Below the pieces are notes generated by a model. It was not told where the DNA came from and did not search any database. It was given only the letters and a program-made list of their open reading frames with translations. This document shows, piece by piece, positions 14,867-64,000 of a DNA stretch of 64,000 nt. The number at the start of each line of letters is the position of its first letter. The stretch's first letter is position 1. Origin of the DNA: a virus (Duplodnaviria > Caudoviricetes); the IMG/VR virus record IMGVR_UViG_3300037067_015585, positions 170,377 to 234,376 of that record. One strand, given 5' to 3'. The translations under genes were made by a program, and so were the position numbers.

Positions 14867-15061
14867 ATGCCTGTGCGAGATATCGAGAACGAACTTGTTG
14901 ATGAAGATTTAGACGAAGACGAATTCGACGACGAAGATGACGATGAATTCGACGACGACGATTGGGACGACGACGAAGACGAAGACGAATTCGACGATGA
15001 TTGGGACGACGACGACGAGTTCGACGACGACGACGAACTCGACGATGAAGATTTAGATTGA
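14867..15061 (+). CDS. Extremely acidic 64-aa protein
   Basis: GGAGGTG RBS; MPVRDIENELVDEDLDEDEFDDEDDDEFDDDDWDDD... Confidence 0.7.
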   Translation: MPVRDIENELVDEDLDEDEFDDEDDDEFDDDDWDDDEDEDEFDDDWDDDDEFDDDDELDDEDLD

Positions 15062-22613: not shown

Positions 22614-23933
22614 ATGAAACTATTCTTGCTTTGTGAAGATGCTGCACTGAAGATACCTTTCTTAGCTAATAAATATAAATTACCTGAAAACCAAATACAA
22701 AAGCTGCTTGAATTCGATCCAACACCAAACAAGAAATTTCTTGATTGGATCTGCAAACAATACAACAAGAAAAATATCTCTCCAGACGATAAAGACAAAA
22801 TAAACAAACAACTAGGACAATTTGAAAACATCAAGAACAAACAAGAGTTTAAATTACACCACCAAACAGATATAAACAAATACGATCCTGCTAAGTTGTA
22901 TGATGTATTATCTGGATATGGACAAGAATCTGGCAGACACGAAAAGAAAGTAGGAAGAGCAGGGGGTGTAGTACTTCCAGTCGGATCTGAGTTGGTGCTT
23001 GATGAGCTACCATTTAAAGCGGTAAAGATAACAGATCCGAAAGCATCCGAAATATTATGCAGCGGAACTAATTGGTGTACTGCGAACGCAAGAACAGCTA
23101 ATAAATATTTAAAAGACGGCCCATTATATTTAATTTATAAAGATGATAAGCGTATATGCCTAATACATTATGAATCAGATCAATTTAAAGAACCAAACGA
23201 TAGTGAAGTTAATCAAGCCACAAAATTCAAGTTAGTAGATTTATTATCTGATGTTACTGGCATAACAAAAGAGAATGACGCACAACTTGCATATCGTTAT
23301 GCAAGCGATGTCGCAAAAGGGCGTTTCCCAGAAGGAGAAGCGGCAATAGCAAGTAATCCAAGTGCTGCCTTTAATTACGCTAAATATTTTGTTAAAGGGC
23401 GATGGCCAGAAGGTGAGGCAGCAATAGCAGGAGAAGCAAGAGAATCATATCACTATGCTAAAGACATCATTAACGGGCGATGGCCAGAAGGCGAGGCAGC
23501 AATTGTAGATGATCCAAATATTGCTTATTTATATGCCGCATCTGTTATCGGTAACAGATGGCCAGAAAGCGAAAAGACGATAGCAAGAAGCTCTGAATAT
23601 TCATATTTATATGCTAAAGACGTTATTCACGGACGCTTTCCTGAAGGCGAGAAAGCAATAGCAAGAGGAGCAAAACAAGCATATTATTATGCAAGAGATA
23701 TTATTAAAGGGCGATTTCAAGAAGGCGAAAAAGCAATATCAAAAAATCCAGCACGTTCATATCAATATGCTAAAGACGTTATTAAGGGCAAATGGCCAGA
23801 AGGAGAAGCAGCGATACTTAAAGATAATAATCGCATAGTGCAATACATCAAACGTGTTATAAAGGGTCGATGGCCAGAGGGTGAAAAGATATTAAATGAT
23901 TCTCCATTTTACCGTGATCAGTGGATGTGGTGA
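22614..23933 (+). CDS. Protein with N-terminal DPT/WCT domain and about nine ~25-aa tandem repeats
   Basis: Repeated YAKDVIKGRWPEGEAAIA-type units. Confidence 0.8.
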   Translation: MKLFLLCEDAALKIPFLANKYKLPENQIQKLLEFDPTPNKKFLDWICKQYNKKNISPDDKDKINKQLGQFENIKNKQEFKLHHQTDINKYDPAKLYDVLSGYGQESGRHEKKVGRAGGVVLPVGSELVLDELPFKAVKITDPKASEILCSGTNWCTANARTANKYLKDGPLYLIYKDDKRICLIHYESDQFKEPNDSEVNQATKFKLVDLLSDVTGITKENDAQLAYRYASDVAKGRFPEGEAAIASNPSAAFNYAKYFVKGRWPEGEAAIAGEARESYHYAKDIINGRWPEGEAAIVDDPNIAYLYAASVIGNRWPESEKTIARSSEYSYLYAKDVIHGRFPEGEKAIARGAKQAYYYARDIIKGRFQEGEKAISKNPARSYQYAKDVIKGKWPEGEAAILKDNNRIVQYIKRVIKGRWPEGEKILNDSPFYRDQWMW

Positions 23934-30557: not shown

Positions 30558-31166
30558 TTGATGCACCACTTCACGGCTGATCTACATATCGATCACAAAA
30601 GCATATTAAAGCATACGCCAGAGCGGGCTAAAGCTTTTGCAAGTCTTGATGAAATGAATGATCATTTCATCAATGAGATCAACCGTGTAGTAAAGCCAAA
30701 TGACGAATTGCATGTTATTGGCGATGTGTTTTGGAATGCACAGCGATATGGATATTATCGCTCGAAGATTAAAGTTAGAAAACTACATATCATTTGCGGC
30801 AACCATGATAGCAACTCTTTATCTGCGTATGTATCGTCTTTTAAAGAGATTAGCTACGTCAAAATCGATGGCATCAGGTTTCATTTACTTCATTTTCCGA
30901 TGTTCTCTTGGAGAGGTCGAGAGAAGGCCAAGTCGATCCACTTATATGGCCATTCTCACGGTAGAAGCGAAGATTTCTTGAATCTACATTTTCCAGGACG
31001 CAGAGCAATGGATGTGGGTATTGACAATGCTTTTAGACTATTAGGCGAATGGCGACCGTTTTCGCTCGACGAGATTTTACAAATATTAAAAATTGAACGT
31101 TGCCCGTCGTGTGGATGGATAGATCCAAGACACAAAAAACTATGTCCTATATGTAAGGGTGCATAA
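30558..31166 (+). CDS. Calcineurin-like metallophosphoesterase
   Basis: ADLH, GD, GNHD, HFP, GHSH, DVGID. Confidence 0.9.
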   Translation: MMHHFTADLHIDHKSILKHTPERAKAFASLDEMNDHFINEINRVVKPNDELHVIGDVFWNAQRYGYYRSKIKVRKLHIICGNHDSNSLSAYVSSFKEISYVKIDGIRFHLLHFPMFSWRGREKAKSIHLYGHSHGRSEDFLNLHFPGRRAMDVGIDNAFRLLGEWRPFSLDEILQILKIERCPSCGWIDPRHKKLCPICKGA

Positions 31167-31932: not shown

Positions 31933-32006
31933 TGCGGGATGGAGCAGCCTGGTAGCTCATAAGCCTCATAAGCTTAAGATCGCTGGTTCAAATCCAGCTC
32001 CCGCCA
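31933..32006 (+). tRNA. tRNA-Met(CAU), initiator-like
   Basis: Cloverleaf with fMet-type D arm (GGAGCAGCCTGGTAGCTC), 1:72 mismatch, CT-CAT-AA loop, TTCAAAT T loop. Confidence 0.9.
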
Positions 32007-32010
32007 CTTT

Positions 32011-32084
32011 GGGCCCGTAGCTCAGTTGGTTAGAGCAGCAAACTCATAATTTGACGGTCGTTCGTCCAAGTCGAACCGGGCCTA
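32011..32084 (+). tRNA. tRNA(CAU), probably Ile2 (or elongator Met)
   Basis: GGGCCCG/CGGGCCT acceptor stem, CAT anticodon, variant T loop TCCAAGT. Confidence 0.85.
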
Positions 32085-32090
32085 CATATT

Positions 32091-32226
32091 ACATAACAAT
32101 GGAACAAGAGGCACTTCTCGTAGAAAAACGGAATTAAATGGCCGTCTGTGTACCGTGAATGAGCGGGCAAGCATAGGAAGTTGTGGGTTGAAACCCCATC
32201 ATAGAAAACTTGTTCTATTGTTGTGT
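32091..32226 (+). ncRNA. Candidate structured ncRNA
   Basis: 18-bp terminal stem with two G-U pairs (ACATAACAATGGAACAAG/CTTGTTCTATTGTTGTGT) enclosing several hairpins. Confidence 0.55.
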
Positions 32227-32750
32227 TAGTTATGTCAATCGATCTTCTTCAACGATTCGAGTGCATCGTCATCGAGGTTCGTGAGGACTGTGTTGATGTT
32301 GAGATGTATGATTTGACGAATCCATCAAATCCAATCGAGTTTGCATCAATCTATCTATCCAAATTCGATGCCAATGACGTAAAGCTATTGTGTGAAGGTG
32401 CCGTTTTCTACTGGAATATTGGGAACGAGACGAAAGATAGCGGGCAGATAATTCGATATTCAGAATTTGTATTTAAGTAGTCCTTAGTTTCACTAACCCC
32501 ATTGATAGGAAGAAAATGGCAAAAGCAAAAAGAGAAGTTAAGCCCGACCGATGTACACTGCAGAAGTGAAGTCTTTGCAACGGTAGATTCTATCGACGAA
32601 GGATATGTTAATCGTCTCAATACAAAATCTATAAAAATTTTAAAATATAAGATGTGGGCTAAAATCGGAATGCTTGATTTCTTTTCAAGCGCCAGGACTA
32701 GACAAAGCACAAGCCCATCAAGGGGCAAAAATAGAGCCAAGTAGTACTAA

Positions 32751-32823
32751 GCCGGTGTAGCTCATTTGGTAGAGCATCTGATCTGTAATCAGACGGTAGT
32801 GGGTTCAATTCCCTCCACCGGCT
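32751..32823 (+). tRNA. tRNA-Thr(UGU)
   Basis: GCCGGTG/CACCGGC acceptor, TCTGA/TCAGA anticodon stem, loop TC-TGT-AA. Confidence 0.88.
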
Positions 32824-33457
32824 CATTTTTCCAGCATTCAATCCAAGTTAATATTCTGTGTGATAGTTTATAATTACTGAATCTCAAATAACAAGTGCCG
32901 TGCGTACATCGGCGTAGTTTGTGATTCTTTCTCACTTCAATCCTTTTTACTTCTACACCAATCTTATTCTCCCAAAATGTTCTCATTTCTTCAGGGTCTA
33001 GATCATCATATATGATGATGTTGCAATAATACCTATTATTAGAACTTAACCTATCGAAGCATCTTTTACATTTTATGATAACACTAGGATCACTATTTGC
33101 GATGCCAACCTGCGATGTCCTGTGTCCTCTAGCTATCTTCGTTCCTTCTCCCCAGTACAATCCTAAAAAGCCCATTAACTCCGGATCATTCTTAACAACT
33201 TTCCATTCTTTCTTTGCGTCATTAATAACAGCTTCAACGGCATTATTCCATTTTTCCTCAGCACGTCTAGATGCATTCTTTGCATTATCGCGAATGCTTC
33301 GATCGATCATGCTTCGATCTGCTATCTCTATATCTCTTGAGTATAAGCCAGCAGTTGACTTAGCACATCCAACAATTTTCACGATGCTTTTGAGACTATG
33401 CCCTTTCCGCCGTAATTCAACGATTCTGTCTTTGAACACACTCTTTGATTCACTCAT
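32789..33457 (-). CDS. HTH plus LAGLIDADG-like endonuclease-fold protein
   Basis: N-terminal HTH (LRRKGHSLKSIVKIVGCAKST), GLYWGEGTK, ANSDP, FWENKIG. Confidence 0.65.
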   Translation of the reverse strand: MSESKSVFKDRIVELRRKGHSLKSIVKIVGCAKSTAGLYSRDIEIADRSMIDRSIRDNAKNASRRAEEKWNNAVEAVINDAKKEWKVVKNDPELMGFLGLYWGEGTKIARGHRTSQVGIANSDPSVIIKCKRCFDRLSSNNRYYCNIIIYDDLDPEEMRTFWENKIGVEVKRIEVRKNHKLRRCTHGTCYLRFSNYKLSHRILTWIECWKNEPVEGIEPTTV

Positions 33458-34373
33458 ATTGGACCTCCGATTTTGTATTTTATCTACTTTTGGTCGTGAG
33501 TTCGAAAAATGAGTAAAACTATTTGGTCTAAAGAGTGGCCGACGAATCCTGGCAGATACTGGCTGTATGGCTGGACGTCAAATTACTTCAAAAGCAAAAA
33601 CAAAAATAAGCCAGAGCTGATATACGTCGATGTTCGTGAAATAGGAACAGAAAAAACATCATCATTAGCCTTTATATGTAAAGGCGGGTTCATCTATAAG
33701 AGAGATGGTGCTGACGGCTTATGGGCACCAATTGATCTGCCAGAATTACCACCAGAGCAAGAATTATGTATGTAATATGTTGGTCCGATGGCAATGGCAG
33801 AGAATTTAAGGCACAGACAGAAGACGTCTATAGTGCTTGGGAAATCTACTGGTATGTTAAGCACGAAGCTGAAATCTCCGTACCAAAATTCAATATTTGG
33901 ATATCTATTTATAGAATAGTAAATACGAACGACAGCCCAATTCATGTTGATCCAAGACAAGGAATCACAGATGACGGCAATTTACATCCGATGGCAAAAG
34001 GCAAATCGCCAAAAATCGTCATGAAAATAGGATTAGACGAGCCATTGCCATGCAATTATATAAACATGTCTTTCGTGCTATAATATGGCAGAAACACCCT
34101 TTGCAATATACCAAAATAAAGATGGCCGAGATGAATTCTTTGTCGAGTTGCGATACTTAATGTCGATATTGACGGCCACATTGGAAGGGTTTACCGAAGA
34201 AATAGTCACTTTTCCAGAGAGTAAAGGAAAAACATTATACATCCCGATCGATCTTGCTATCGCGTGGATTGAAAAAGAAATGGATGATGATCCACAATGC
34301 CTAGAGGGCAAAGGTTTAGAGGTCGAGTGTTCGTTGAAGATAGCAAAAGAAAAGTTCGAATCGGAGTGTGTAG

Positions 34374-34655
34374 ATGGCAAGTATACCGGATGTCATTAAT
34401 GGTGCGTTTGAGTTACTAGGCGGTTTTATGATCGCCAAAAACTGTTGGAATCTTCACCGAGATAAAGAGTTAAAGGGCGTCAGTCTATTACCGATGACGT
34501 TCTTTAACTTGTGGGGATTTTGGAACCTGTACTTTTATCCGCATTACGACGCTTGGTGGAGTTTCGCTGGTGCTCTCGGAATAGTTATCGCTAATACGAC
34601 GTGGGTCATTCAAGCAATATATTACATCCACAAAAATGAACATAAGACAGGCTAG
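34374..34655 (+). CDS. PQ-loop/SemiSWEET-like small membrane protein
   Basis: Three hydrophobic segments, KGVS motif. Confidence 0.5.
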   Translation: MASIPDVINGAFELLGGFMIAKNCWNLHRDKELKGVSLLPMTFFNLWGFWNLYFYPHYDAWWSFAGALGIVIANTTWVIQAIYYIHKNEHKTG

Positions 34656-35069
34656 AAAAATAGTTGGCTCTGGTAGCAAACAACACAAGCATATTACAAA
34701 GACGTCCAATGGGACATTTTTGAAGGCACGAAGAGTTAAGCATAGCCATACGTCCCGCTACTATAAAGTACACAGTCAGTGGCCGACAATCAACGGATAT
34801 GTTGTTCTGCTTGGCGGCGCATCTATCAGAGTTGATATGTATGCGCTTCTTGGTGGCGACGGTCCTGCACTTGAAGAATTCAAGAGGACCCACTAATATG
34901 GTTGGTTATACAGTACACTCACTTCTCGATCCGACTTCGATGTGTTCTAATCCACGTAATTTCATCGATACGCCGACAAAAGACGGACGTATTCGAACCA
35001 CCTGCAAAGTCTGTGGTGATTTTATTGGCTACAGACCGATAGTCGAAGAAACAAAGAAACGAGGAAAAA

Positions 35070-35627
35070 ATGGCAAAAAAGTCTAAGGCGAAACGCTCCG
35101 ATACGTTCAAACGTGGGGCGTATTTTGTCATGCACAGCTATCTATGCTTGCTGCTCGATACTATAACGTGTGCGGCACTCGGTGAGTGCATTACCAGTAG
35201 CAATACGGATAGTGATGCTCTTCTAGCGTTTGGTACTCAGCTTAACAAGTTCAAGAGCACCAGTAAGCAGCAAATGAAAGATGACAAGCGCATTAAATGC
35301 AAGAGAATTGACCCTGAAATCATGGAAGAACTCGAACGAATAAATAAGACCGCGTTCCTGAGGATCGGATGCCTTAACGAATATACTACACCAATCTTAC
35401 TGGACGAAGACTTCTGCATCGTTCTTGGCAAATTCATCGAAGCGAATGGTAGTGATAATGCGAGCATTAGGAGAATCGGACGCCGGTTACTCAAAGCCAA
35501 AGAATACAATGTGAAGCGCACCATTAAATGGGTGAAGGCCAGAAGGAAGAATGGCGAATCATTTAAACACATCAGTAAAGAGCTTGGGATTTCAGTTTCG
35601 ACCGCATCGAAATATAGCAAGCTATAA
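35070..35627 (+). CDS. Hypothetical protein with C-terminal HTH
   Basis: [21 protein letters not shown]. Confidence 0.6.
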
Positions 35628-36251
35628 ACAAATCAATAATAGACAAAGAAGCAAATGACCGACATAGACGATGAATTTATGGAATGCAAGGAATGTAGTA
35701 AAAAGCCTGGTACACCGATACTGTGCAAGAGTTGTCAACACAACCGTGTCTTAATTGAAATATTGCAAGAAAAGGTCAATCATATGTCAATCGACAATCA
35801 TCCAAATTTTCATGCTTCAAACTTCGCAGTCCACATAACAGCGGCTTTTTATGAGTCACTGCGTGGAGGTGCGACCGCGAAAAACACACCGGATATATCA
35901 AACGAAGTGATCGAATTCATATGTAAAATCGAGGATATGGTCGATCGGGCAGTAGAGTCGGCAGACGCACGCCCATTAAAGGGGTATGCCGAAAGGCGTG
36001 AGATACACGATAAGGATGTAAAATAGTGTTAAGCAGAGAAGACATTGATGCTCGCATGGAAGCATATGACGAAGCGATTGGACATTTAGATCAGATAATG
36101 GATATACCGCCAAATCTTCCGCTTGATGAACAAGGTCAAGCAGTACGTGAGCGAAATCAACGAAGATGGCTTGCAAAGCATTTGAGGAAAGAAGCTGACG
36201 ATTGGTATAAGGAGATAATGAGACGGTGTGAGATAAGAATTTAAACAAAAC

Positions 36252-36324
36252 GTGTCAGTAGCTCAATGGATCGAGCAATGGACCTCTACTCCATCGGTTG
36301 GGAGTTCGACTCTCCCCTGACACA
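36252..36324 (+). tRNA. tRNA-Arg(UCU)
   Basis: GTGTCAG/CTGACAC acceptor, A20, ATGGA/TCCAT stem, loop CC-TCT-AC, TTCGACT T loop. Confidence 0.85.
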
Positions 36325-37525
36325 CTTGATTAGAAGACAGTGATCTTCAATATGGTTACAGAATATCCACAAGTTATTGGTGAATTATTGCAGTTACTCA
36401 ATTGCACATTAGACTTGGCGGGATGCCGTCAAGCGATGGAAATGATTCATTCGAGAGAAGCTACGCAGATCGTAATCAAGGGCGGATCTTTTGCTGGTTG
36501 CTATGATAGCGAAGAGATTGACCGGCAAATCGGAAACGCCGTTTTGCAGCAATATCCACAATTAAAACCATTGGTAGTTGGTTTGAAAGAGGAGGGTAGC
36601 GGATTTTATGGTATTGCTGCTTGGTTAAATGATTTTGTGGAGAGCATTGCTCTTTTGAGCGGCAATAGGCCACTTCCAACAGACAAATTCTCATTCGTTA
36701 AGGGTGAAAAAGGTCATGGAATCATCTTTTTCGAAGCCGGATATTATTCGATTATGTTGAAAGATCCGAACAGGATTTTAACATACCAAACTGCTTTCGA
36801 TGCGGCATTAGATGGTTGGAGCATAGACTAAATACATGAATATTTCTAAGGCATACTGGTATTATTGCAGTAAGCTTGGGTGTCGCTTATATTACATAGC
36901 ATCACCACGATATCAAAAAAGACCTGTTATTAATGTTGAAATCTGGTGTCCTGCTGTCGATTCTCATGTAAAAATCGTTCTGGTTGGAGTTGGACAAGAC
37001 GGTGCGAAAGAATTCAACTGGATGCCAACTTTCCCTGTCGATCTATATCATAGACCATACAAGCTTGATCCATACGTATCAAAAACATGTAATCAAAATA
37101 TGATCGATGAATGGGAATGTTTAATAGCGTCTAAGAAGAGAGAACTACAATAAAATGACATTTGAGGTACTATTATGGAAGAATTAAGTTGTGTGGCTAT
37201 TTATGGTAGTGAGTGGACAACCAGATTCATGCAGGACGCCGACTGTTTTGAGCGGTTTAAGGTTATAGCAGAACCGGTAAAATTCGTATTGACGCTCAAA
37301 CCTGATTGCTCAAAAGAGCGTGCACTCAACGATTTGAAGATGCTGCTGGAGAAGTCTGGTAATCGTGTCGTTGCGATATTTGCACCAAACGTCAAAGAAG
37401 GTGCGTATGTCGATGAATCGATCAAAGTGATTAGCAACGGTACACAATGGTGTATGTTAAAGGACGTGCTTGAAGCATATGGTTATACGGGTCAAGGCAC
37501 AACTTGTGCCGTCAAAACATAAAAT

Positions 37526-37612
37526 GGACAGTTGGCCGAGTGGATTATGGCTGCAGTCTTGAAAATTGCCGTAGGTGAAAGCCTACCGGGTGTTCGAATC
37601 ACCCACTGTCCG
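37526..37612 (+). tRNA. tRNA-Ser(UGA)
   Basis: GGACAGT/ACTGTCC acceptor, CT-TGA-AA loop, long variable arm, G73. Confidence 0.92.
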
Positions 37613-37891
37613 CTTAAGAAAGACATTATGAAAGATTCTGTTTATCGGACGAGAACACGATTTAAGGTATTTTTTGAACGCACTGACTCTCCGCATTGCG
37701 AAGAAGCAATGAATAAGTTGCTGGAGCGCGTTGATGATTGGGCATCAGAAGGTAATAAAACTGTTCTGGCATGGCAATGGAAGCATAAAGTCGAAAACAT
37801 GGGGAAACAGTTATATGTTGACATTGAGGTCATATATAGTGAAATCATCGAAGAGAGTTAATGATATATGATTCTCGTGCCATAATATAGT

Positions 37892-38473
37892 ATGATCAAA
37901 TCTGTCGAATTCAAAGTCGATTGGCGAACATTCAAGGCTGGCGATCGGTTTGAATTTACCCCTGGTATAAATCTTCTAGTGGGGGATCAGGGAGCCGGAA
38001 AGAGTTCTCTAATAACTCTGTTCAAATGGGCACTAAATGATAATAAGGAATTTGAAAGAATTGCCCATATATCGGTCGAAGGCAAGATACAGTTACGCCT
38101 ATTCGACTTTGAAGCAGATAATCCAAGAACAAGAAGCTATTGTCAGCACGCAGCGGATGTGTATATGAGATTCCAGGCCCACGGCAATTGCGTTCTGGCC
38201 ATACTTGACGTACTTGGCGAGGAAATAGATACGGTCAAAGCGTTTGTACTCGATGAACCAGATATGGCTCTGAGTATCAGATCGATAAATAAATTAGTAG
38301 GTATTTTAAAATCCACAAAGCATCAGGTCATATCATCAGCGCACAATCCACTATTAATCCAGTCGTTCGATAATGTTTTGTCGATAGAGCATAAAAAGTG
38401 GATGAAGTCGAAAGAATTTATTGAAAGTCAGATGACAGATGGCGAAGAAGCGCAAACCGACAGCAAAACCTAA
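37892..38473 (+). CDS. ABC/AAA-type ATPase
   Basis: GDQGAGKS Walker A, VLDEPD Walker B, SAHNP. Confidence 0.85.
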   Translation: MIKSVEFKVDWRTFKAGDRFEFTPGINLLVGDQGAGKSSLITLFKWALNDNKEFERIAHISVEGKIQLRLFDFEADNPRTRSYCQHAADVYMRFQAHGNCVLAILDVLGEEIDTVKAFVLDEPDMALSIRSINKLVGILKSTKHQVISSAHNPLLIQSFDNVLSIEHKKWMKSKEFIESQMTDGEEAQTDSKT

Positions 38474-38744
38474 ACTTTCTTCTGGCTCATTTAGTTCATT
38501 CAAACAAACATTCTCGTTCGATCTAGATTCCGTCGTGTTTATGTCTGTGTTGGGTTGGATGATAAGAAAGGAAATCGAGCAGACTTCTCTTGACATGTCG
38601 GAAAACAAGATGTGCGTTCCGAAAGATACAATTATTAAGGCGATTAAGAAGATCGGCCTTGGCAACTGGGTCAGCAAGGTAGAGAAATCTATTGCCGACT
38701 CTATAATCGAAGATGCTCGAGAAGAGCTTGCGAACAAAAAATGA
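38439..38744 (+). CDS. Hypothetical protein
   Basis: ORF directly upstream of array 1. Confidence 0.5.
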   Translation: MAKKRKPTAKPKLSSGSFSSFKQTFSFDLDSVVFMSVLGWMIRKEIEQTSLDMSENKMCVPKDTIIKAIKKIGLGNWVSKVEKSIADSIIEDAREELANKK

Positions 38745-38755
38745 ATTAATATAAT

Positions 38756-39190
38756 GGTGTGGCCTGGTGAGGTCCGGCTAGGCATGGCGGGGTTTGGTGG
38801 GGTAGGGTACGGTCAGGTCTGGGTGCCAATGGCACATTTACAAATCAAGAGCAATGTGGTGAGGTGAGGTGAGGTATGGTGTGGCGCGGTGCGGTGTGGC
38901 CTGGTGCGGTCGGGCCTGGCGAGGTGCGGTAAGGTTTGGGTGCCAATGGCACATTTACAAATCAATACTAGTGATATGGCTAGGCGAGGCGCGGTCTGGT
39001 AAGGTAAGGTCTGGTGCGGTGCGGTGTGGCGTGGTAAGGTTTGGGTGCCAATGGCACATTTATAAATCAAGAGTGATGGCCGGGCGAGGTGCGGTGTGGT
39101 TTGGTCGGGTCAGGTCTGGTGTCGTGCGGTTTGGTGTGGTAAGGTAAGGTGTGGTAAGGTTTGGGTGCCAATGGCACATTTACAAATCAA
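38756..39190 (+). repeat. GGY-NN array 1: four (GGYNN)13-17 tracts, each ending in a 29-nt palindromic repeat; putative guide-RNA array
   Basis: TGGGTGCCAATGGCACATTTAYAAATCAA at 38820, 38937, 39042 and 39162; strict 5-nt GGY periodicity in the tracts. Confidence 0.9.
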
Positions 39191-39202: not shown

Positions 39203-40081
39203 ATGAGCTTAACAATATCAATAATCGGCAAGAATGAGGAAGATAATCTTAGTCGCTGTATCAAGTCAGTGCTTCCAATTGCTGATTTGATCGTCTACGC
39301 TGATACTGGTAGTACTGATTCGTCAATTGAAATTGCTGGATCACTCGGATGTACTATTCGGAACATCAAATTTGAAGATTTTGCACAAGCACGCAACGAC
39401 GCGAAGGAAGGCATTCCTGATGACTGGATCTTGCAAATCGACGCCGACGAAGTGTTATTGAATGCCGAAAAACTGCTACCATGCCTCGAATCAGATTATT
39501 ATGAGGCATATCTGTCATCGCAAGAACATCTAATGATCGGTGGCAACAAAACATCGATCGCTATGCGATTGTTTAGAAATCGTGAACATTATAAGTATGT
39601 TGGATGCATTCACGAAATGCCAGAGGATATGAATGCAAGTGGTCCTGACAAGGCCATCTCACCATATATGTTCACGAAGGATTGGGGGTTCGCACATTAT
39701 GGATGTGTTGACGAACCGCTGCGGCGAGTGAAAGTATCTGAGCGTAATCTAAAACTATTAATCAAGGATCTGCATGTTAATCCATATAGGTCTTATAATA
39801 AATACTTGATGATACGCGATTACCTCAATATCTATAAATGGAGAACAGAAGCGAACGGATTTAGGTGTAAGTTTGGATCTATCGAGCACAACCTTTTGTG
39901 TGCAGTAATAAGAGACTACGACAAATACAAAAAAGACATATTATCGCGTTATCGTGATCTAGCAAACGAAGTTTTTGAATCAGCCCAATCTGTGCTATCA
40001 CAACAGGATTATCAATATATTGAAACGAATATGTCGCCAATCGAATTGCTATCATTAGGGTTGAGTGATGCCAGCGCATAA
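39203..40081 (+). CDS. GT2 glycosyltransferase
   Basis: IIGKNEE, DTGSTD, DFAQARN, IDADE, IHE, HYG. Confidence 0.9.
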   Translation: MSLTISIIGKNEEDNLSRCIKSVLPIADLIVYADTGSTDSSIEIAGSLGCTIRNIKFEDFAQARNDAKEGIPDDWILQIDADEVLLNAEKLLPCLESDYYEAYLSSQEHLMIGGNKTSIAMRLFRNREHYKYVGCIHEMPEDMNASGPDKAISPYMFTKDWGFAHYGCVDEPLRRVKVSERNLKLLIKDLHVNPYRSYNKYLMIRDYLNIYKWRTEANGFRCKFGSIEHNLLCAVIRDYDKYKKDILSRYRDLANEVFESAQSVLSQQDYQYIETNMSPIELLSLGLSDASA

Positions 40082-60176: not shown

Positions 60177-60557
60177 ATGGAAGAAGAAATATATACCTAT
60201 TTTATATGCGATAGATGTAGATCGTTTTCGGACCACCAAAAGGTTTGGTGTCCGTCTTGTGGCCAGAAACTACGCTACGAGAAAGACAGGAGAAGCGAAC
60301 TAGAAGCAAAGGGGTTTGAAAGCACATACGATCTTGCTTTTTATAAGCGTGAGGGTGGTAGATTTGAGGCGTTTATAAGAACTCCCAAGACATTCATTGG
60401 GGCTATCAACACGGAAGCTGAATGTACTCTACATATCATAGTCCGGGCGTCACGGAAGAGTGAAGCCATAGAAAAGGCCAGTAAATATGGTAGAATAAAC
60501 AACATCCATGCCCTACGCATTGATGATAATGGTAGGGGCGGACCTGAACTAACTTAA
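60177..60557 (+). CDS. Zn-ribbon hypothetical protein
   Basis: CDRC...CPSCG. Confidence 0.55.
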   Translation: MEEEIYTYFICDRCRSFSDHQKVWCPSCGQKLRYEKDRRSELEAKGFESTYDLAFYKREGGRFEAFIRTPKTFIGAINTEAECTLHIIVRASRKSEAIEKASKYGRINNIHALRIDDNGRGGPELT

Positions 60558-61945
60558 TTGTTGTTCGATTCCATCATCGCAACAAACTTCAAGAAATTCT
60601 CGGACCAACCAGAAATTTCAGCTGTCCAGATTCCCTGATAATTGACGCCATGTGATTCAGATGAGACGTCGATAATGTAGTTTCTTTGGCCGTGCGGTCT
60701 CGGCTGTCCTCTTCCAGGTAAATCACAATCTTGTGAATCACTGAAAATAAGCAACCGATCCGGCGATTCAATCTTATCGCGAATATAGTCACACACCTGA
60801 CGTGTAAAAATTCCACCGCCACCCATATTATCATATGCATCCGTGATATGATCGGCGAGCGAGAATCCACGTGTTGCTTCAACTTTTCTTGTGGCGTGCT
60901 TTCGTTGGTGATCGCTACCAGCAGTCACATAAACAGAAACGTGATCGCAGCACTCTGCCGCAAGCACGGCCATTGAAGCCGCCGCATCAATTCGAGTGAA
61001 CTCTGATTTGCTCGACAGATTGCTGTGCATCGATCCAGACACATCGATAACTAGTGTCGTGAATCCGGCAAGTCTCGGCCATGATTTCGCACACCGATAC
61101 ATCAAATCCTCGATTTCACGTGTCCAATCAGGAGCATATTTGCGAGCTTTAAGAAAATCGATCGGTAATAACATATCTGATTTGCACGTGTCGAATGCTT
61201 TCGCCATCGACGAACGTGAAATCTTTACTTCCTGCATATTTCGCAGATTTTTCAAAAATACGTATGCTGGCAGTTTACCTTCATCAATCAATCGCTCCCA
61301 TACTCCACGCTTTTCATCGGTGTTCTTCGCCGCCGACATACCGACTTCCCAAGTATCAGGAGTAGCCAATTCATTGTACAACAGTTTCTTATATAATGAA
61401 TTGCGATCGCCTGCCGGTTTCGCATGTACGAGACGCATAGCATCACGAAGCTTGATGTCTTTATCCATCTGCTTGTATTTAGCAAGCTGATACTCATCAA
61501 ACTTATCGAACGCAGCCGCCAAACCTCTCTTTACGGCTGCTGGCAATGATTTCTTTTTATCATTGTCGGACCAATAAAGAGATATAAATTCAGTTATCTC
61601 ATCTGGACGCTTACAGATCTTGGTCAGCGTCTCAGCGACACCGGGCATGTGATTGCGAGCCATTTCACGAACGATCAACAGCGGAACATGCCGTAGTTTC
61701 TGATCGTATCTGGCCTCAATAGCAATATCGGCAACATTCGGAACCAACGGCACCAAACTCTTGATCTTATTGACGACTTCTTGGCCATCGCAATATGCGT
61801 TTTTCTCCCACAAGAGGCAAGACATAACAAGGCGACGAAGAGTAGCCTCGTCTCCCTGTTTGGCTGCTCTCGGGCCATATCCACCAGCAAGGTGCTTGTC
61901 AGCGTAAACGTGTGATTTCTTAGTCTTTTTGTTTGTCGTCGCCAT
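60554..61945 (-). CDS. Ro60/Rsr TROVE-domain RNA-binding protein
   Basis: SCLLWE, LRHVP, FDEYQLAKY, TPDTWE, KNLRN, vWA DVSGSM, SDSQ, GWSE. Confidence 0.92.
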   Translation of the reverse strand: MATTNKKTKKSHVYADKHLAGGYGPRAAKQGDEATLRRLVMSCLLWEKNAYCDGQEVVNKIKSLVPLVPNVADIAIEARYDQKLRHVPLLIVREMARNHMPGVAETLTKICKRPDEITEFISLYWSDNDKKKSLPAAVKRGLAAAFDKFDEYQLAKYKQMDKDIKLRDAMRLVHAKPAGDRNSLYKKLLYNELATPDTWEVGMSAAKNTDEKRGVWERLIDEGKLPAYVFLKNLRNMQEVKISRSSMAKAFDTCKSDMLLPIDFLKARKYAPDWTREIEDLMYRCAKSWPRLAGFTTLVIDVSGSMHSNLSSKSEFTRIDAAASMAVLAAECCDHVSVYVTAGSDHQRKHATRKVEATRGFSLADHITDAYDNMGGGGIFTRQVCDYIRDKIESPDRLLIFSDSQDCDLPGRGQPRPHGQRNYIIDVSSESHGVNYQGIWTAEISGWSENFLKFVAMMESNNN

Positions 61946-62243
61946 AATCGTCACCCAGCAGTTTCTTATCAAACCAAACTGGCCAATTAGTTTTTAGGAG
62001 ATCCTCTTTGATCTCCTCGGTTACTAAAATGTCTTGAAATTTTACTAGCGGATTAACGTGATAAAATAAATCACGCATCAGAGAACAAACACCAGTTGCT
62101 CTATATCTCCATCCAATTATTTCTTCTGGCATACCCTCTCTAGTCAGTGAACATGCTATACACAGAGCGATCTCTTCAAGGAAGTAATTCCTTAGTTTCT
62201 CACTGTCCGCTAAGAATTCTCTGGATTTCATAATTGCAACCAT
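61920..62243 (-). CDS. Hypothetical protein between the Y RNAs and Ro60
   Basis: ORF overlapping the Ro60 start. Confidence 0.5.
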   Translation of the reverse strand: MVAIMKSREFLADSEKLRNYFLEEIALCIACSLTREGMPEEIIGWRYRATGVCSLMRDLFYHVNPLVKFQDILVTEEIKEDLLKTNWPVWFDKKLLGDDYGDDKQKD

Positions 62244-62252
62244 CTAATATAG

Positions 62253-62357
62253 AGGCGGTTACAGCGGGAAAAGTCTCACACAGTCCTTAATACTGAGTCC
62301 CTTTTTGAGAGGGGCTGTTTCGAAGTATCTGTGCGATGCGCCACACTGTAACCGCCT
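62253..62357 (-). ncRNA. Y-RNA-like RNA lacking the tRNA module
   Basis: Terminal stem AGGCGGTTACAG/CTGTAACCGCCT; shares GTGGCG, TACTTCG and TTTTCCCGC motifs with its neighbours. Confidence 0.65.
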
Positions 62358-62367
62358 TATATTAAAA

Positions 62368-62506
62368 GTGTTGCGGGAAAAAGCGAAACGGGCTATTTTA
62401 AGCGCTCTGCCAACTGAGCTACACCCGAATTGCTCGGATGGTTGGACTCGGACCAACGACCTCTCGCTCCAATTGCGAAGTAACCCATCTCTGCGCCACG
62501 CAACAC
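62368..62506 (-). ncRNA. YrlA-like Y RNA (permuted tRNA mimic), copy 1
   Basis: Terminal stem enclosing a T arm (GTTGG-TCCGAGT-CCAAC), a closed acceptor-like stem and a D arm (TAGCTCAGTTGGCAGAGC). Confidence 0.85.
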
Positions 62507-62572
62507 AGTTTTATAGGGATATGATTCGCTGTAAGTCAAAAGCCTGCAGGTTCACATATCCTTTTATTTTTA

Positions 62573-62715
62573 AAGTTGCTGCGGGAAAAAGCGAAGTAGG
62601 TAACGTTAGCGCTCTGCCAACTGAGCTACACCCGATTGCTCGGATGGCTGGACTCGGACCAGCGACCTCTCGATTAGCATTCGAAGTAACCCACTTCTAC
62701 GCCACGCAGCAACTT
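62573..62715 (-). ncRNA. YrlA-like Y RNA, copy 2
   Basis: Paralog of copy 1 with a different terminal stem; class-B motif about 10 nt upstream. Confidence 0.85.
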
Positions 62716-63006: not shown

Positions 63007-63522
63007 TTACATAATGATCGGTGGACGTTGTATAACATCTGTCCTTGAACTGTGTTCTGTCGTACGCATCTGCCGATCTAGTTCAGTCATATTCGCGTGC
63101 AACATCTCCATTTGTGCAGCCATGAATTTGCCCTCGCGATCGTTGACCTTCGCCGACTTATCGTTACTGAGGCACATCAATGATTGGAGGTTGGCTTTAT
63201 GTTGGTGCTTTGCACGTTTTATACGCTTCTTCGATACCAGATAGATCTGTTCGTGCTCGGTCATCATCCTAAGACCAACGTCGCGATATGACCAAAGTTG
63301 AATACCACGTTCGTCTTGCATTCTCTGGACAAACCGCTTCATGATATAGCCACCATTTGCAGTATTGTTCTGGTAGGCTAATTCCGTGCGGCTAAATCCG
63401 CTCACACTCTCCAATTCTTCCCACGTCAGAATATCGCCACGGCATTTCGGCACAGCGAATTGCATAAGTCGATCGACTGCTGCTTGTGATGCTGGGTTAA
63501 ATTCAAATGCTCGTCTAATCAT
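63007..63522 (-). CDS. Hypothetical protein directly downstream of GGY-NN array 2 (candidate accessory factor)
   Basis: GAGGA RBS; winged-helix-like pattern GDILTWEELE...GIQLWSYRDVGLRM followed by a helical tail. Confidence 0.6.
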   Translation of the reverse strand: MIRRAFEFNPASQAAVDRLMQFAVPKCRGDILTWEELESVSGFSRTELAYQNNTANGGYIMKRFVQRMQDERGIQLWSYRDVGLRMMTEHEQIYLVSKKRIKRAKHQHKANLQSLMCLSNDKSAKVNDREGKFMAAQMEMLHANMTELDRQMRTTEHSSRTDVIQRPPIIM

Positions 63523-63575
63523 AATGTCCTCTTTGTAATGATGATTGAATTATACCAGATTGTAGCATGAAAACA

Positions 63576-64000
63576 GTGATTTGTAAATGTGCCATTGGCA
63601 CCCAGACCATACCAGACCCAGCCAAACCAGACCTCGCCACACCCGACCTCACCTCACCGGGCCGTACCATGCCTTATTCGTCTTGATTTATAAATGTACC
63701 ATTGGTACCCAAACCCGACCCCACCAAACCCGGCCCAACCACACCCTACCACACCTGACCTGACCGTACCGAGCCACTTCTTGATTTGTAAATGTGCCAT
63801 TGGCACCCAGACCAGACCAAGCCGCGCCACACCTTACCGTACCCGACCCCACCGTGCCATACCGCACCGCACCAGATCTATTGGCTTGTAAATGTGCCAT
63901 TGGCACCCAGACCTCACCCCGCCAGACCCCGCCGCACCATACCTCGCCGCACCTCGCCGCACCTCGCCGCACCACGCCCCATCGCTCTTGATTTATAAAT
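63576..64000 (-). repeat. GGY-NN array 2 (truncated by window end)
   Basis: Reverse complement of the same 29-nt repeat at 63576, 63683, 63781, 63881 and 63988 (partial); RCC-NN periodic tracts on the + strand. Confidence 0.9.

What the first reader, a model, noticed from the sequence alone, without database searches (positions are those of the whole stretch)
38756..39190. CRISPR-like array whose spacers are an alternating constant-GGY / variable-NN code
Seen: four units, each with 13-17 GGY-NN pentamers (one CGT variant) followed by a conserved 29-nt repeat containing the dyad GTGCCA-A-TGGCAC and ATTT-AY-AAAT. The GGY scaffold is fixed while the NN string differs in every unit, which is not what satellite slippage produces. 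The array is G-rich in an AT-rich genome and intergenic, and the same repeat recurs 24 kb away on the other strand. Inference: it is transcribed and processed at the repeat into ~100-120 nt guide RNAs, with GGY bound by a repeating protein subunit and NN displayed for target pairing. This fits my recollection of recently reported phage GGY/NN guide systems (VIPR, with a RAMP/Cas7-like protein); that link needs checking.
Basis: partly seen in the sequence, partly recalled or inferred. Interest (0 to 1): 0.95.

Follow-up and report, generated by a model that had tools for sequence, protein, structure and literature searches.

The report
VIPR guide-RNA arrays in jumbo phage
The two G-rich repeat arrays encode guide RNAs of a VIPR system, a CRISPR-related, phage-borne RNA-guided DNA-silencing system first described in 2026, so this is a real new example of a known kind, although the gene for the guide-binding protein lies off this incomplete contig.

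Summary
Array A (38756-39190, +) has four units of 13, 16, 13 and 17 GGY-NN pentamers. Each unit ends in an invariant 28-nt tail. Array B (63576-64000, -) has four more units plus a fifth tail cut by the contig end.

Of 113 pentamers, 112 are GGY, and the NN positions are near maximal entropy. The tail forms a 5-bp hairpin supported by compensatory changes.

This matches vrRNAs of VIPR systems (bioRxiv 10.64898/2026.04.26.720920, .720927 and 2026.10.15.759431). The gene just downstream of array B is a distant Vap1-like winged-helix protein. In four relatives the order is vipr, array, vap, and three of them carry the same tail.

No vipr gene lies in the 234-kb contig, and the profile search had a working positive control. 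The contig breaks inside array B, exactly where vipr is expected, so vipr's presence is inferred, not shown.

Array A is a second, detached array 24 kb away, with its own promoter-like site.

No targets were found and there is no self-targeting. No RNA data exist for this DNA.

This scan has already met VIPR arrays on many other genomes. Verdict: new member of a known kind, of moderate interest.

The parts
38728..38755 (+). Sigma-70-like promoter site TTGCGA-16-TATAAT, ending one base before the first GGY of array A
   Evidence: This is a consensus match only; 3 sites were found in the region against 1.9 expected.
38756..38848 (+). vrRNA unit A1: 13 GGYNN pentamers (38756-38820) plus the 28-nt tail (38821-38848)
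38858..38965 (+). vrRNA unit A2: 16 pentamers (38858-38937) plus tail (38938-38965)
38978..39070 (+). vrRNA unit A3: 13 pentamers (38978-39042) plus tail (39043-39070, T variant at the Y position)
39078..39190 (+). vrRNA unit A4: 17 pentamers (39078-39162, with one CGTGC at 39123-39127) plus tail (39163-39190). A GT2 glycosyltransferase gene starts 12 nt later.
63988..64000 (-). 3' part of a further tail (ATTTATAAATCAA), cut by the end of the contig. Array B therefore continues beyond the window.
63881..63978 (-). vrRNA unit B1: 14 pentamers (63909-63978) plus tail (63881-63908, 2 mismatches)
63781..63873 (-). vrRNA unit B2: 13 pentamers (63809-63873) plus tail (63781-63808)
63683..63775 (-). 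vrRNA unit B3: 13 pentamers (63711-63775) plus tail (63683-63710) with a compensatory stem change (GUACC/GGUAC)
63576..63673 (-). vrRNA unit B4: 14 pentamers (63604-63673) plus tail (63576-63603)
63559..63587 (-). Promoter-like site TTTACA-17-TACAAT with an upstream TG. It overlaps the last tail and points at vap.
   Evidence: consensus match only
63007..63522 (-). vap1-like accessory gene of 171 aa. The model shows a winged-helix-like N-terminal domain and a long helical hairpin.
   Evidence: - Homologs lie directly downstream of arrays in L015 (41% identity), L021 (P0002, 71-72%), L023/L024 (P0097, 70%) and L016.
- hhalign against SUSP1 Vap1: E 2.6e-4 over 87 columns.
- Family members hit phrog_5926, the PHROG of SUSP1 Vap1.
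- AF2 model pLDDT 81. Foldseek rows are mostly winged-helix regulators with E >= 0.03.

Best explanation
Both arrays encode VIPR guide RNAs (vrRNAs) of a type II-like VIPR system carried by an uncultivated jumbo phage.

Each unit would yield an RNA of roughly 100-120 nt. It consists of a tract of 13-17 GGY-NN pentamers followed by an invariant tail, which is a 5-bp hairpin plus the single-stranded stretch AUUUAYAAAUCAAGAG.

By analogy with SUSP1 (shown there, inferred here), one Vipr (minimal Cas7-like RAMP) protomer binds each pentamer through GGY. The protomers form a helical filament capped by the tail. The NN pairs read double-stranded DNA with one skipped base per pair, so a 13-unit guide specifies 26 bases over 38 bp. 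Binding then silences transcription of a competing mobile element, helped by the winged-helix Vap protein encoded next to array B.

The vipr gene is not in the contig. I infer that it lies just upstream of array B, beyond the assembly break.

Array A is a detached second guide bank with its own promoter-like site, and I infer that the same Vipr uses it because the tail is identical.

Shown here: the anatomy, the conservation pattern, the tail hairpin covariation, the vap homolog and the vipr-array-vap order in relatives. Inferred: transcription, processing, Vipr loading, DNA silencing, the identity of the targets and the location of vipr.
For: Anatomy:
- It matches published vrRNAs, described as 9-16 YNNGG repeats with conserved GGY, hypervariable NN and an invariant structured 3' tail (paper text; my counts).
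- The tail hairpin is paired in 100% of 120 cells. Two of its five pairs show compensatory changes, and 0 of 500 shuffles reach the observed covariation score. With the 3' partner slid, only 23-58% of cells pair.

Genes:
- The Vap homolog sits directly downstream of array B.
- Four relatives show vipr, then array, then vap. L015/G001, L017 and L021 carry the same tail; L016 has a covarying stem.
- The relatives' Viprs hit phrog_4652, the PHROG of SUSP1 Vipr, at E 1e-8 to 6e-18.
- Their only PDB sequence hit is SUSP1 Vipr, entry 36pp.
- They share the G-x-GDWRP loop that contains the residues shown to be essential in SUSP1.
- The Vipr model's top 50 Foldseek hits are all Csm3/Cmr/Cas7 RAMPs.

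Guides:
- No guide is shared between this phage and its relatives.
- There is no self-targeting: the best NN match is at most 0.69, the same as shuffled guides. The papers report the same.
- The NN pairs fit sense-strand codon positions 1-2 (log2 LR +13.9, with all five other registers negative). This agrees with the published finding that the skipped base falls on the wobble position.

Assembly and samples:
- The contig ends inside a tail. Three other assemblies also break in these arrays.
- The sample that best holds this stretch also holds a complete vipr about 88% identical in DNA to L017's.
Against: - No vipr gene lies in the 234,376-bp contig. This was tested by phmmer, by phrog_4652 in six frames and by a clade profile. 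The same phrog_4652 search finds vipr in the relative. The system's defining protein is therefore not shown for this phage.
- No target was found for any guide in IMG/VR, in species genomes, in the 388-kb relative or in the phage's own contig.
- No RNA data exist for this DNA.
- Homology of Vap to SUSP1 Vap1 is weak (hhalign probability 42%; the window protein itself has no PHROG hit).
- The tail is a plain hairpin, not the pseudoknot of the SUSP1 clade. An outer stem proposed by MFE folding is not conserved.
- The VIPR cassette is not at the position it occupies in the relatives.
Confidence: 0.85

Rival explanations
1. The arrays are solo (orphan) vrRNAs in a phage that lacks vipr. The phage keeps guides and vap but has lost vipr. 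Its RNAs would load onto the Vipr of a co-infecting relative or resident element, either redirecting that machinery or using it as 'guns for hire', as described for VIPR-null SUSP1-like phages and satellites.
For: - No vipr lies in 234 kb, despite a working positive control.
- Array A stands alone, 24 kb from any VIPR gene.
- Solo vrRNAs are documented in 346 phages (paper text).
- Several vipr variants co-occur in the same metagenomes.
- The cassette is not at the relatives' position.
Against: - The contig is incomplete (CheckV 64%) and stops inside array B, at the spot where all four relatives have vipr.
- Published VIPR-null phages lost vipr and vap1 together, whereas vap here is intact and has its own promoter-like site.
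- All 54 pentamers of array B's four complete units keep GGY perfectly.
Confidence: 0.12
2. The arrays are canonical CRISPR arrays, or some other non-VIPR repeat such as a G-quadruplex-forming satellite, with no guide function.
For: - The direct repeats of 28 nt are separated by stretches of 70-92 nt that differ from unit to unit.
- GG runs spaced by 3 nt could form two-tetrad G-quadruplexes (my inference).
Against: - The 'spacers' have a strict 5-nt GGY scaffold, which CRISPR spacers never show.
- No cas gene was seen among the flanking ORFs.
- Slippage satellites do not hold three positions fixed while two positions reach about 1.9 bits of entropy.
- The arrays always co-occur with vipr and vap in relatives.
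Confidence: 0.02
3. The tracts are translated as glycine- and tryptophan-rich repeat proteins.
For: - Frames of up to 94-103 codons stay open through the arrays on both strands.
- Gene callers have called such ORFs in other assemblies (P0005).
Against: - The periodicity is 5 nt, not 3 (self-identity 0.65 against 0.27).
- Unit periods of 100, 98 and 107 nt in array B break any reading frame.
- Every frame has 2-11 stop codons.
- Conservation follows RNA structure, shown by compensatory stem changes.
Confidence: 0.01

Closest known systems
Type II VIPR system of Escherichia phage SUSP1 (vipr agp039, vap1 agp038, four vrRNAs; bioRxiv 10.64898/2026.04.26.720920 and .720927; PDB 36pp)
   Same: - The guides are GGY-NN pentamers of about 100 nt with an invariant 3' tail that begins GGGT.
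- A small Vap1-like DNA-binding gene lies beside the array.
- The relatives' Vipr belongs to the same PHROG (phrog_4652) and has the same GDWRP G-loop.
- The system is phage-borne, and there is no self-targeting.
   Different: - The tail is a simple 5-bp hairpin with a 3-nt loop, not an H-type pseudoknot.
- Gene order in the clade is vipr, array, vap. In SUSP1 it is vrRNA, vipr, vap1, then three vrRNAs.
- The arrays are longer: at least 5 units in array B here and about 10 in the relative.
- There is a second array 24 kb away.
- The host genome is a jumbo phage from groundwater and landfill metagenomes.
- Vipr is about 21% identical to SUSP1's, and Vap is only marginally similar to Vap1.
- vipr is not on this contig.
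Solo (orphan) vrRNAs of VIPR-null phages and F5 satellites (bioRxiv 10.64898/2026.10.15.759431)
   Same: Array A is a vrRNA array with no vipr or vap next to it, and its tail is identical to that of a VIPR locus.
   Different: - Published solo loci carry 1-2 vrRNAs left at the site of a vipr-vap1 deletion, whereas array A has four units at a separate site.
- The same genome keeps a vap-linked array.
- No targets in vipr genes, vrRNAs or satellites could be shown.
Class 1 CRISPR-Cas effector backbones (Cas7/Csm3 filaments on crRNA)
   Same: - A repeat-derived handle caps a variable guide.
- A RAMP protomer binds the guide at a fixed period, and the model of the relatives' Vipr matches Csm3/Cmr/Cas7.
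   Different: - The period is 5 nt, with three of the five bases fixed and unpaired.
- The target code is gapped.
- There are no cas1/cas2 genes, no adaptation module and no nuclease.
- The system is carried by a virus.

Membership tests
VIPR system (type II-like) | vrRNA variable region of tandem GGY/NN (YNNGG) pentamers, with GGY conserved and NN hypervariable | tested here: met
   Eight complete units of 13-17 pentamers. 112 of 113 are GGY. NN entropy is 1.85 and 1.91 bits. No guide is shared with the relatives.
VIPR system (type II-like) | Invariant, structured 3' tail capping each vrRNA | tested here: met
   The 28-nt tail is conserved in 8 copies. The hairpin is 100% paired with compensatory changes. 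It is a hairpin, not the SUSP1-clade pseudoknot, and the outer stem is not conserved.
VIPR system (type II-like) | vipr gene (minimal RAMP with a G-loop and thumb) in the locus | tested here: inconclusive
   It is absent from the 234-kb contig, and the same search finds it in the relative. However, the contig is 64% complete and breaks inside array B, where L015, L016, L017 and L021 all have vipr.
VIPR system (type II-like) | vap accessory gene; in type II, a predicted DNA-binding protein | tested here: met
   The 171-aa gene at 63007-63522 (-).
- hhalign against SUSP1 Vap1: E 2.6e-4.
- Family members hit phrog_5926.
- The model is winged-helix-like.
Homology is weak, but the position is conserved in five relatives.
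VIPR system (type II-like) | Processed RNAs of about 100 nt that co-purify with Vipr | not testable with these tools
   No RNA run holds this DNA. Unit periods of 98-120 nt are compatible.
VIPR system (type II-like) | Guides match DNA of competing mobile elements under the 1-nt-skip rule, without self-targeting | tested here: inconclusive
   No self-target was found. No external target was found, but collection scans required exact 11-unit matches and the search of the relative allowed at most 3 mismatches.
CRISPR-Cas | Identical repeats separated by unique spacers without internal scaffold, plus cas genes (cas1/cas2 and effector) | tested here: not met
   The inter-repeat tracts are GGY-scaffolded. 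There are no Cas domains in the ORFs flanking either array.
VIPR-null solo vrRNA locus | The genome lacks both vipr and vap1, and 1-2 vrRNAs remain at the deletion site | tested here: not met
   vap is present and intact next to array B. Whether vipr is absent from the whole genome cannot be decided from an incomplete contig.

The most novel reading that the evidence does not exclude
The phage runs two physically separate guide banks. Array A sits 24 kb from the VIPR genes, behind its own promoter-like site and 12 nt upstream of a glycosyltransferase gene. It could be expressed on a different schedule from the vap-linked array B. Alternatively, if the closed genome proves to lack vipr, both arrays could be solo guides that commandeer a rival jumbo phage's Vipr. 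Either case would extend the 'guns for hire' logic from Enterobacteriaceae phages to environmental jumbo phages.
Probability: 0.12. Interest if true: 0.55.

Novelty: new member of a known kind. Interest (0 to 1): 0.35.

Why it matters
VIPR was described only in 2026, and experiments so far cover the SUSP1 and Pseudomonas fulva systems. This locus adds several things.

- It adds a clade from uncultivated jumbo phages in groundwater and landfill metagenomes. The Vipr family behind it has at least 87 cluster representatives, nearly all unnamed.
- The clade has long arrays and a simpler hairpin tail.
- The genome carries a second, detached array.

It is useful as comparative material for questions such as which tail features Vipr needs, how guides turn over and how cassettes move. 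It also gives a practical warning that these arrays break metagenome assemblies, so vipr and its guides often end up on different contigs. It does not change what is known about the mechanism.

Tried and rejected
DNA similarity and vipr searches:
- megablast of both array regions against 50,697 phage records gave no match.
- Searches for vipr in the contig were empty: phmmer with SUSP1 Vipr, phrog_4652 in six frames, and a 3-sequence clade profile.

Target searches:
- All 8 guides against the phage's own contig at skips of 0-3 nt found only the guides' own genes, at skip 3.
- My guides against the relatives' loci and SUSP1 gave nothing at 0.75 or above. Only one of 12 relatives' guides exceeded its shuffled controls on my contig (28 of 44, 0.64), well below the 0.8 threshold.
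- Exact 11-unit 1-nt-skip scans of IMG/VR for A1, A3, A4, B2, B3 and B4 gave nothing.
- The same scans of species genomes for B4 and A1 gave nothing.
- Seven guides with up to 3 mismatches against the complete 388-kb relative gave nothing.

Attempts to reach beyond the contig end:
- The window's exact Vap is not on record elsewhere.
- P0003, P0005, P0006 and P0093 could not be fetched.
- A search with the array-spanning ORF found no near-identical copy.

Sequencing runs:
- No RNA holder is listed for this stretch.
- Run X4 gave no cover when laid on L017.

Structure and folding:
- The outer stem GGUUUG/CAAAUC proposed by MFE folding is rejected, because its middle pairs are broken in most sequences.
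- The whole-unit fold is no more stable than shuffles (z = 0.13).
- BLASTP of Vap against SUSP1 Vap1 is not significant.
- The Vap PDB sequence search gave no meaningful hit.
- The idea that guide B3 spells the Vipr G-loop (RFGRF) is not supported by scanning SUSP1 or the relatives' vipr genes.
- The small ORF upstream of vipr in L017 has no homolog at the start of my contig.

Full report
**Observation**

The window is the last 64 kb of a 234,376-bp IMG/VR viral contig. The contig has 40.5% GC, is linear, and CheckV rates it 64% complete.

At 38756-39190 (+) there are four units.
- Each unit is a run of 13, 16, 13 or 17 GGYNN pentamers, with one CGTGC variant.
- Each run is followed by GGGTGCCAATGGCACATTTAYAAATCAA.
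- This 28-mer occurs 4 times on the + strand and 4 times, with 0-2 mismatches, on the - strand at 63576-63908. Shuffles give 0.

Array B (-) has units of 14, 13, 13 and 14 pentamers. The contig ends inside a fifth tail, so the array is truncated by the assembly.

Of 113 pentamers, 112 are GGY. The two N positions carry 1.85 and 1.91 bits of entropy. Self-identity is 0.65 at period 5 and 0.27 at period 3. Nowhere else in the contig is there a run longer than 5-6 defective units.

**What the literature says**

The library holds three 2026 preprints on VIPR systems. They report the following.
- A minimal RAMP protein, Vipr, binds vrRNAs of about 100 nt. These consist of 9-16 YNNGG repeats plus an invariant structured tail.
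- The NN pairs read double-stranded DNA with one skipped base per pair.
- Binding silences transcription of competing phages or satellites.
- Loci usually hold vipr plus one accessory gene (vap).
- SUSP1 and a Pseudomonas fulva prophage exemplify type II.

The October preprint adds solo vrRNAs and VIPR-null phages that lost vipr and vap1 together.

**The reference locus**

In SUSP1 (NC_028808) I located the locus from its GGY-NN tracts.
- agp039 (195 aa, with a CGVGDWRPRFGRF loop) is Vipr and belongs to phrog_4652.
- agp038 is Vap1 and belongs to phrog_5926.

**Genes here**

Pfam and PHROGs find no RAMP beside either array. No vipr exists anywhere in the contig by phmmer, by phrog_4652 in six frames or by a clade profile. 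The phrog_4652 search finds exactly one vipr in the relative at E 3e-11, so the negative result is real for these 234 kb.

The 171-aa gene directly downstream of array B (63007-63522, -) is the best match to SUSP1 Vap1 among 1,045 ORFs, at E 0.01.
- Its family aligns collinearly with Vap1 by hhalign: E 2.6e-4, 87 columns, probability 42%.
- Two family members hit phrog_5926 weakly.
- Its AF2 model (pLDDT 81) has a winged-helix-like domain and a long helical hairpin.
- Foldseek rows are weak (E >= 0.03) but are mostly winged-helix regulators.

**Relatives**

The same tail occurs in a 388,105-bp jumbo-phage contig that is 99% complete (G001; loci L013-L015) and in a 1.46-kb contig (L017).
- G001: a 226-aa ORF that hits SUSP1 Vipr (E 7e-9) lies directly upstream of about 10 units. 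These are followed by a homolog of my Vap (41% identity, E 2e-42).
- L017: vipr, then an array. The contig breaks in a tail.
- L021: the 3' end of vipr, a hairpin, two units, then a Vap 71-72% identical to mine.
- L016: a high-GC element with the same order and a tail stem of different sequence.

All these Viprs share G-x-GDWRP and hit phrog_4652 at E 1e-8 to 6e-18. The L017 protein's only PDB sequence hit is 'SUSP1 Vipr protein', entry 36pp. Its model (pLDDT 60) matches only Csm3/Cmr/Cas7 RAMPs in the top 50 Foldseek rows, each with E >= 0.007. The clade has at least 87 cluster representatives, nearly all unnamed.

**Where is vipr?**

My contig stops inside array B, at the position where vipr lies in all four relatives. 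Three other assemblies also break in such arrays.

The DNA run that best holds my stretch (a groundwater metagenome) contains an 841-bp contig covering a whole vipr at about 88% DNA identity to L017's. This shows co-occurrence, not linkage.

The cassette's neighbours in the relatives have homologs at the start of my contig, at C1:5704-15355 on the minus strand. These neighbours are gene X upstream of vipr, and LemA and the next gene downstream of vap. Array B and vap are at the other end of my contig. Either the cassette moved, or the two contig ends adjoin with vipr in the gap. I could not decide between these.

I put about 0.7 on vipr lying just beyond the end of the contig, and 0.12 on a vipr-less phage with solo arrays.

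**The tail**

In 24 distinct tails the stem GUGCC/GGCAC is paired in all 120 cells. It shows compensatory changes G-C to A-U (unit B3 and L021), and G-C to C-G and U-A to C-G (L016). No shuffle reaches the observed covariation score.

An outer stem suggested by MFE folding is not conserved. The 3-nt loop leaves no room for the SUSP1-type pseudoknot. The stretch AUUUAYAAAUCAAGAG after the hairpin is conserved in sequence.

**Guides**

No guide is shared with any relative. The closest pair is B3 and a G001 guide, which share one run of four NN pairs.

Read as a set, the NN pairs fit sense-strand codon positions 1-2 (log2 LR +13.9), while all five other registers score negative.

No self-target exists. 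No target was found in any collection I could search. Those searches needed exact or near-exact matches, so they do not show that targets are absent.

**Expression**

A site TTGCGA-16-TATAAT ends one base before array A. A site TTTACA-17-TGcTACAAT overlaps the last tail of array B and points at vap. Both are consensus matches only. No RNA run holds this DNA. The papers I read name no processing enzyme for type II arrays.

**Verdict**

This is a VIPR guide-RNA locus, closest to type II. Its distinguishing features are:
- a jumbo-phage carrier;
- a plain hairpin tail;
- the order vipr, array, vap in the clade;
- a second, detached four-guide array;
- a defining protein gene that falls off the contig.

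The kind is already published, and this scan has met it on many other genomes. It is therefore a new member of a known kind, of moderate interest.

Noticed in passing
window 60554-62687 (-): A TROVE/Ro60-like gene lies at 60554-61972 (PF05731 E 8e-17; phrog_850 'RNA-binding protein'). Upstream of it are two full-length but sub-threshold YrlA (Y RNA-like, RF02553) matches at 62585-62687 and 62377-62499 (E 4e-5 and 1.6e-4). This looks like a phage Ro60 plus Y-RNA module immediately downstream of the VIPR vap gene.
   Followed up: partly
P0004 (173 aa, 1-kb JGI contig): This is a chimeric protein. About 43 N-terminal residues of Vipr are joined in frame to Vap from about residue 44. That would delete most of vipr, the whole array and the start of vap. 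It is either a natural deletion or an assembly chimera.
   Followed up: no
G000:C1:5704-15355 (-) versus window 63007-64000 (-): In the relatives the VIPR cassette's neighbours are gene X, LemA and the next gene. Their homologs lie at the start of this contig, while array B and vap lie at its end. Either the cassette moved, or the two contig ends adjoin in the real genome with vipr in the gap.
   Followed up: partly
L017, L023, L024 and the end of the window: Four independent assemblies break inside these arrays. vrRNA arrays fragment metagenome assemblies, so vipr, the guides and vap often end up on different contigs.
   Followed up: partly
window 31933-37613 (+): A cluster of five tRNA genes (Met, Met, Thr, Arg, Ser) lies upstream of array A. 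The relative's detached array (L014) sits in the same neighbourhood but at a different junction, between homologs of window 30558-31163 and 34724-35083.
   Followed up: partly
window 39203-40081 (+): A family 2 glycosyltransferase gene starts 12 nt after the last tail of array A. No terminator-like site lies between them, so the array may sit in that gene's 5' leader.
   Followed up: no
window 63711-63775 (-) and L015 6880-6943: Guide B3 and one guide of the 388-kb relative share the NN run CA GT AG GT (0.75 identity over at least 16 positions). This is the only hint of common descent or a common target among 20 guides.
   Followed up: no
window 23392-23816 and 14911-15051: There is a 78-nt tandem repeat (5.4 copies, 67% matches) and an acidic GAC/GAA-rich repeat tract. 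Both are probably inside coding sequence.
   Followed up: no
window 37892-38473 (+): A short (193 aa) ABC/SMC-type ATPase-like ORF (AAA_21, AAA_23, SMC_N) lies two genes upstream of array A. It looks like a truncated or minimal form.
   Followed up: no
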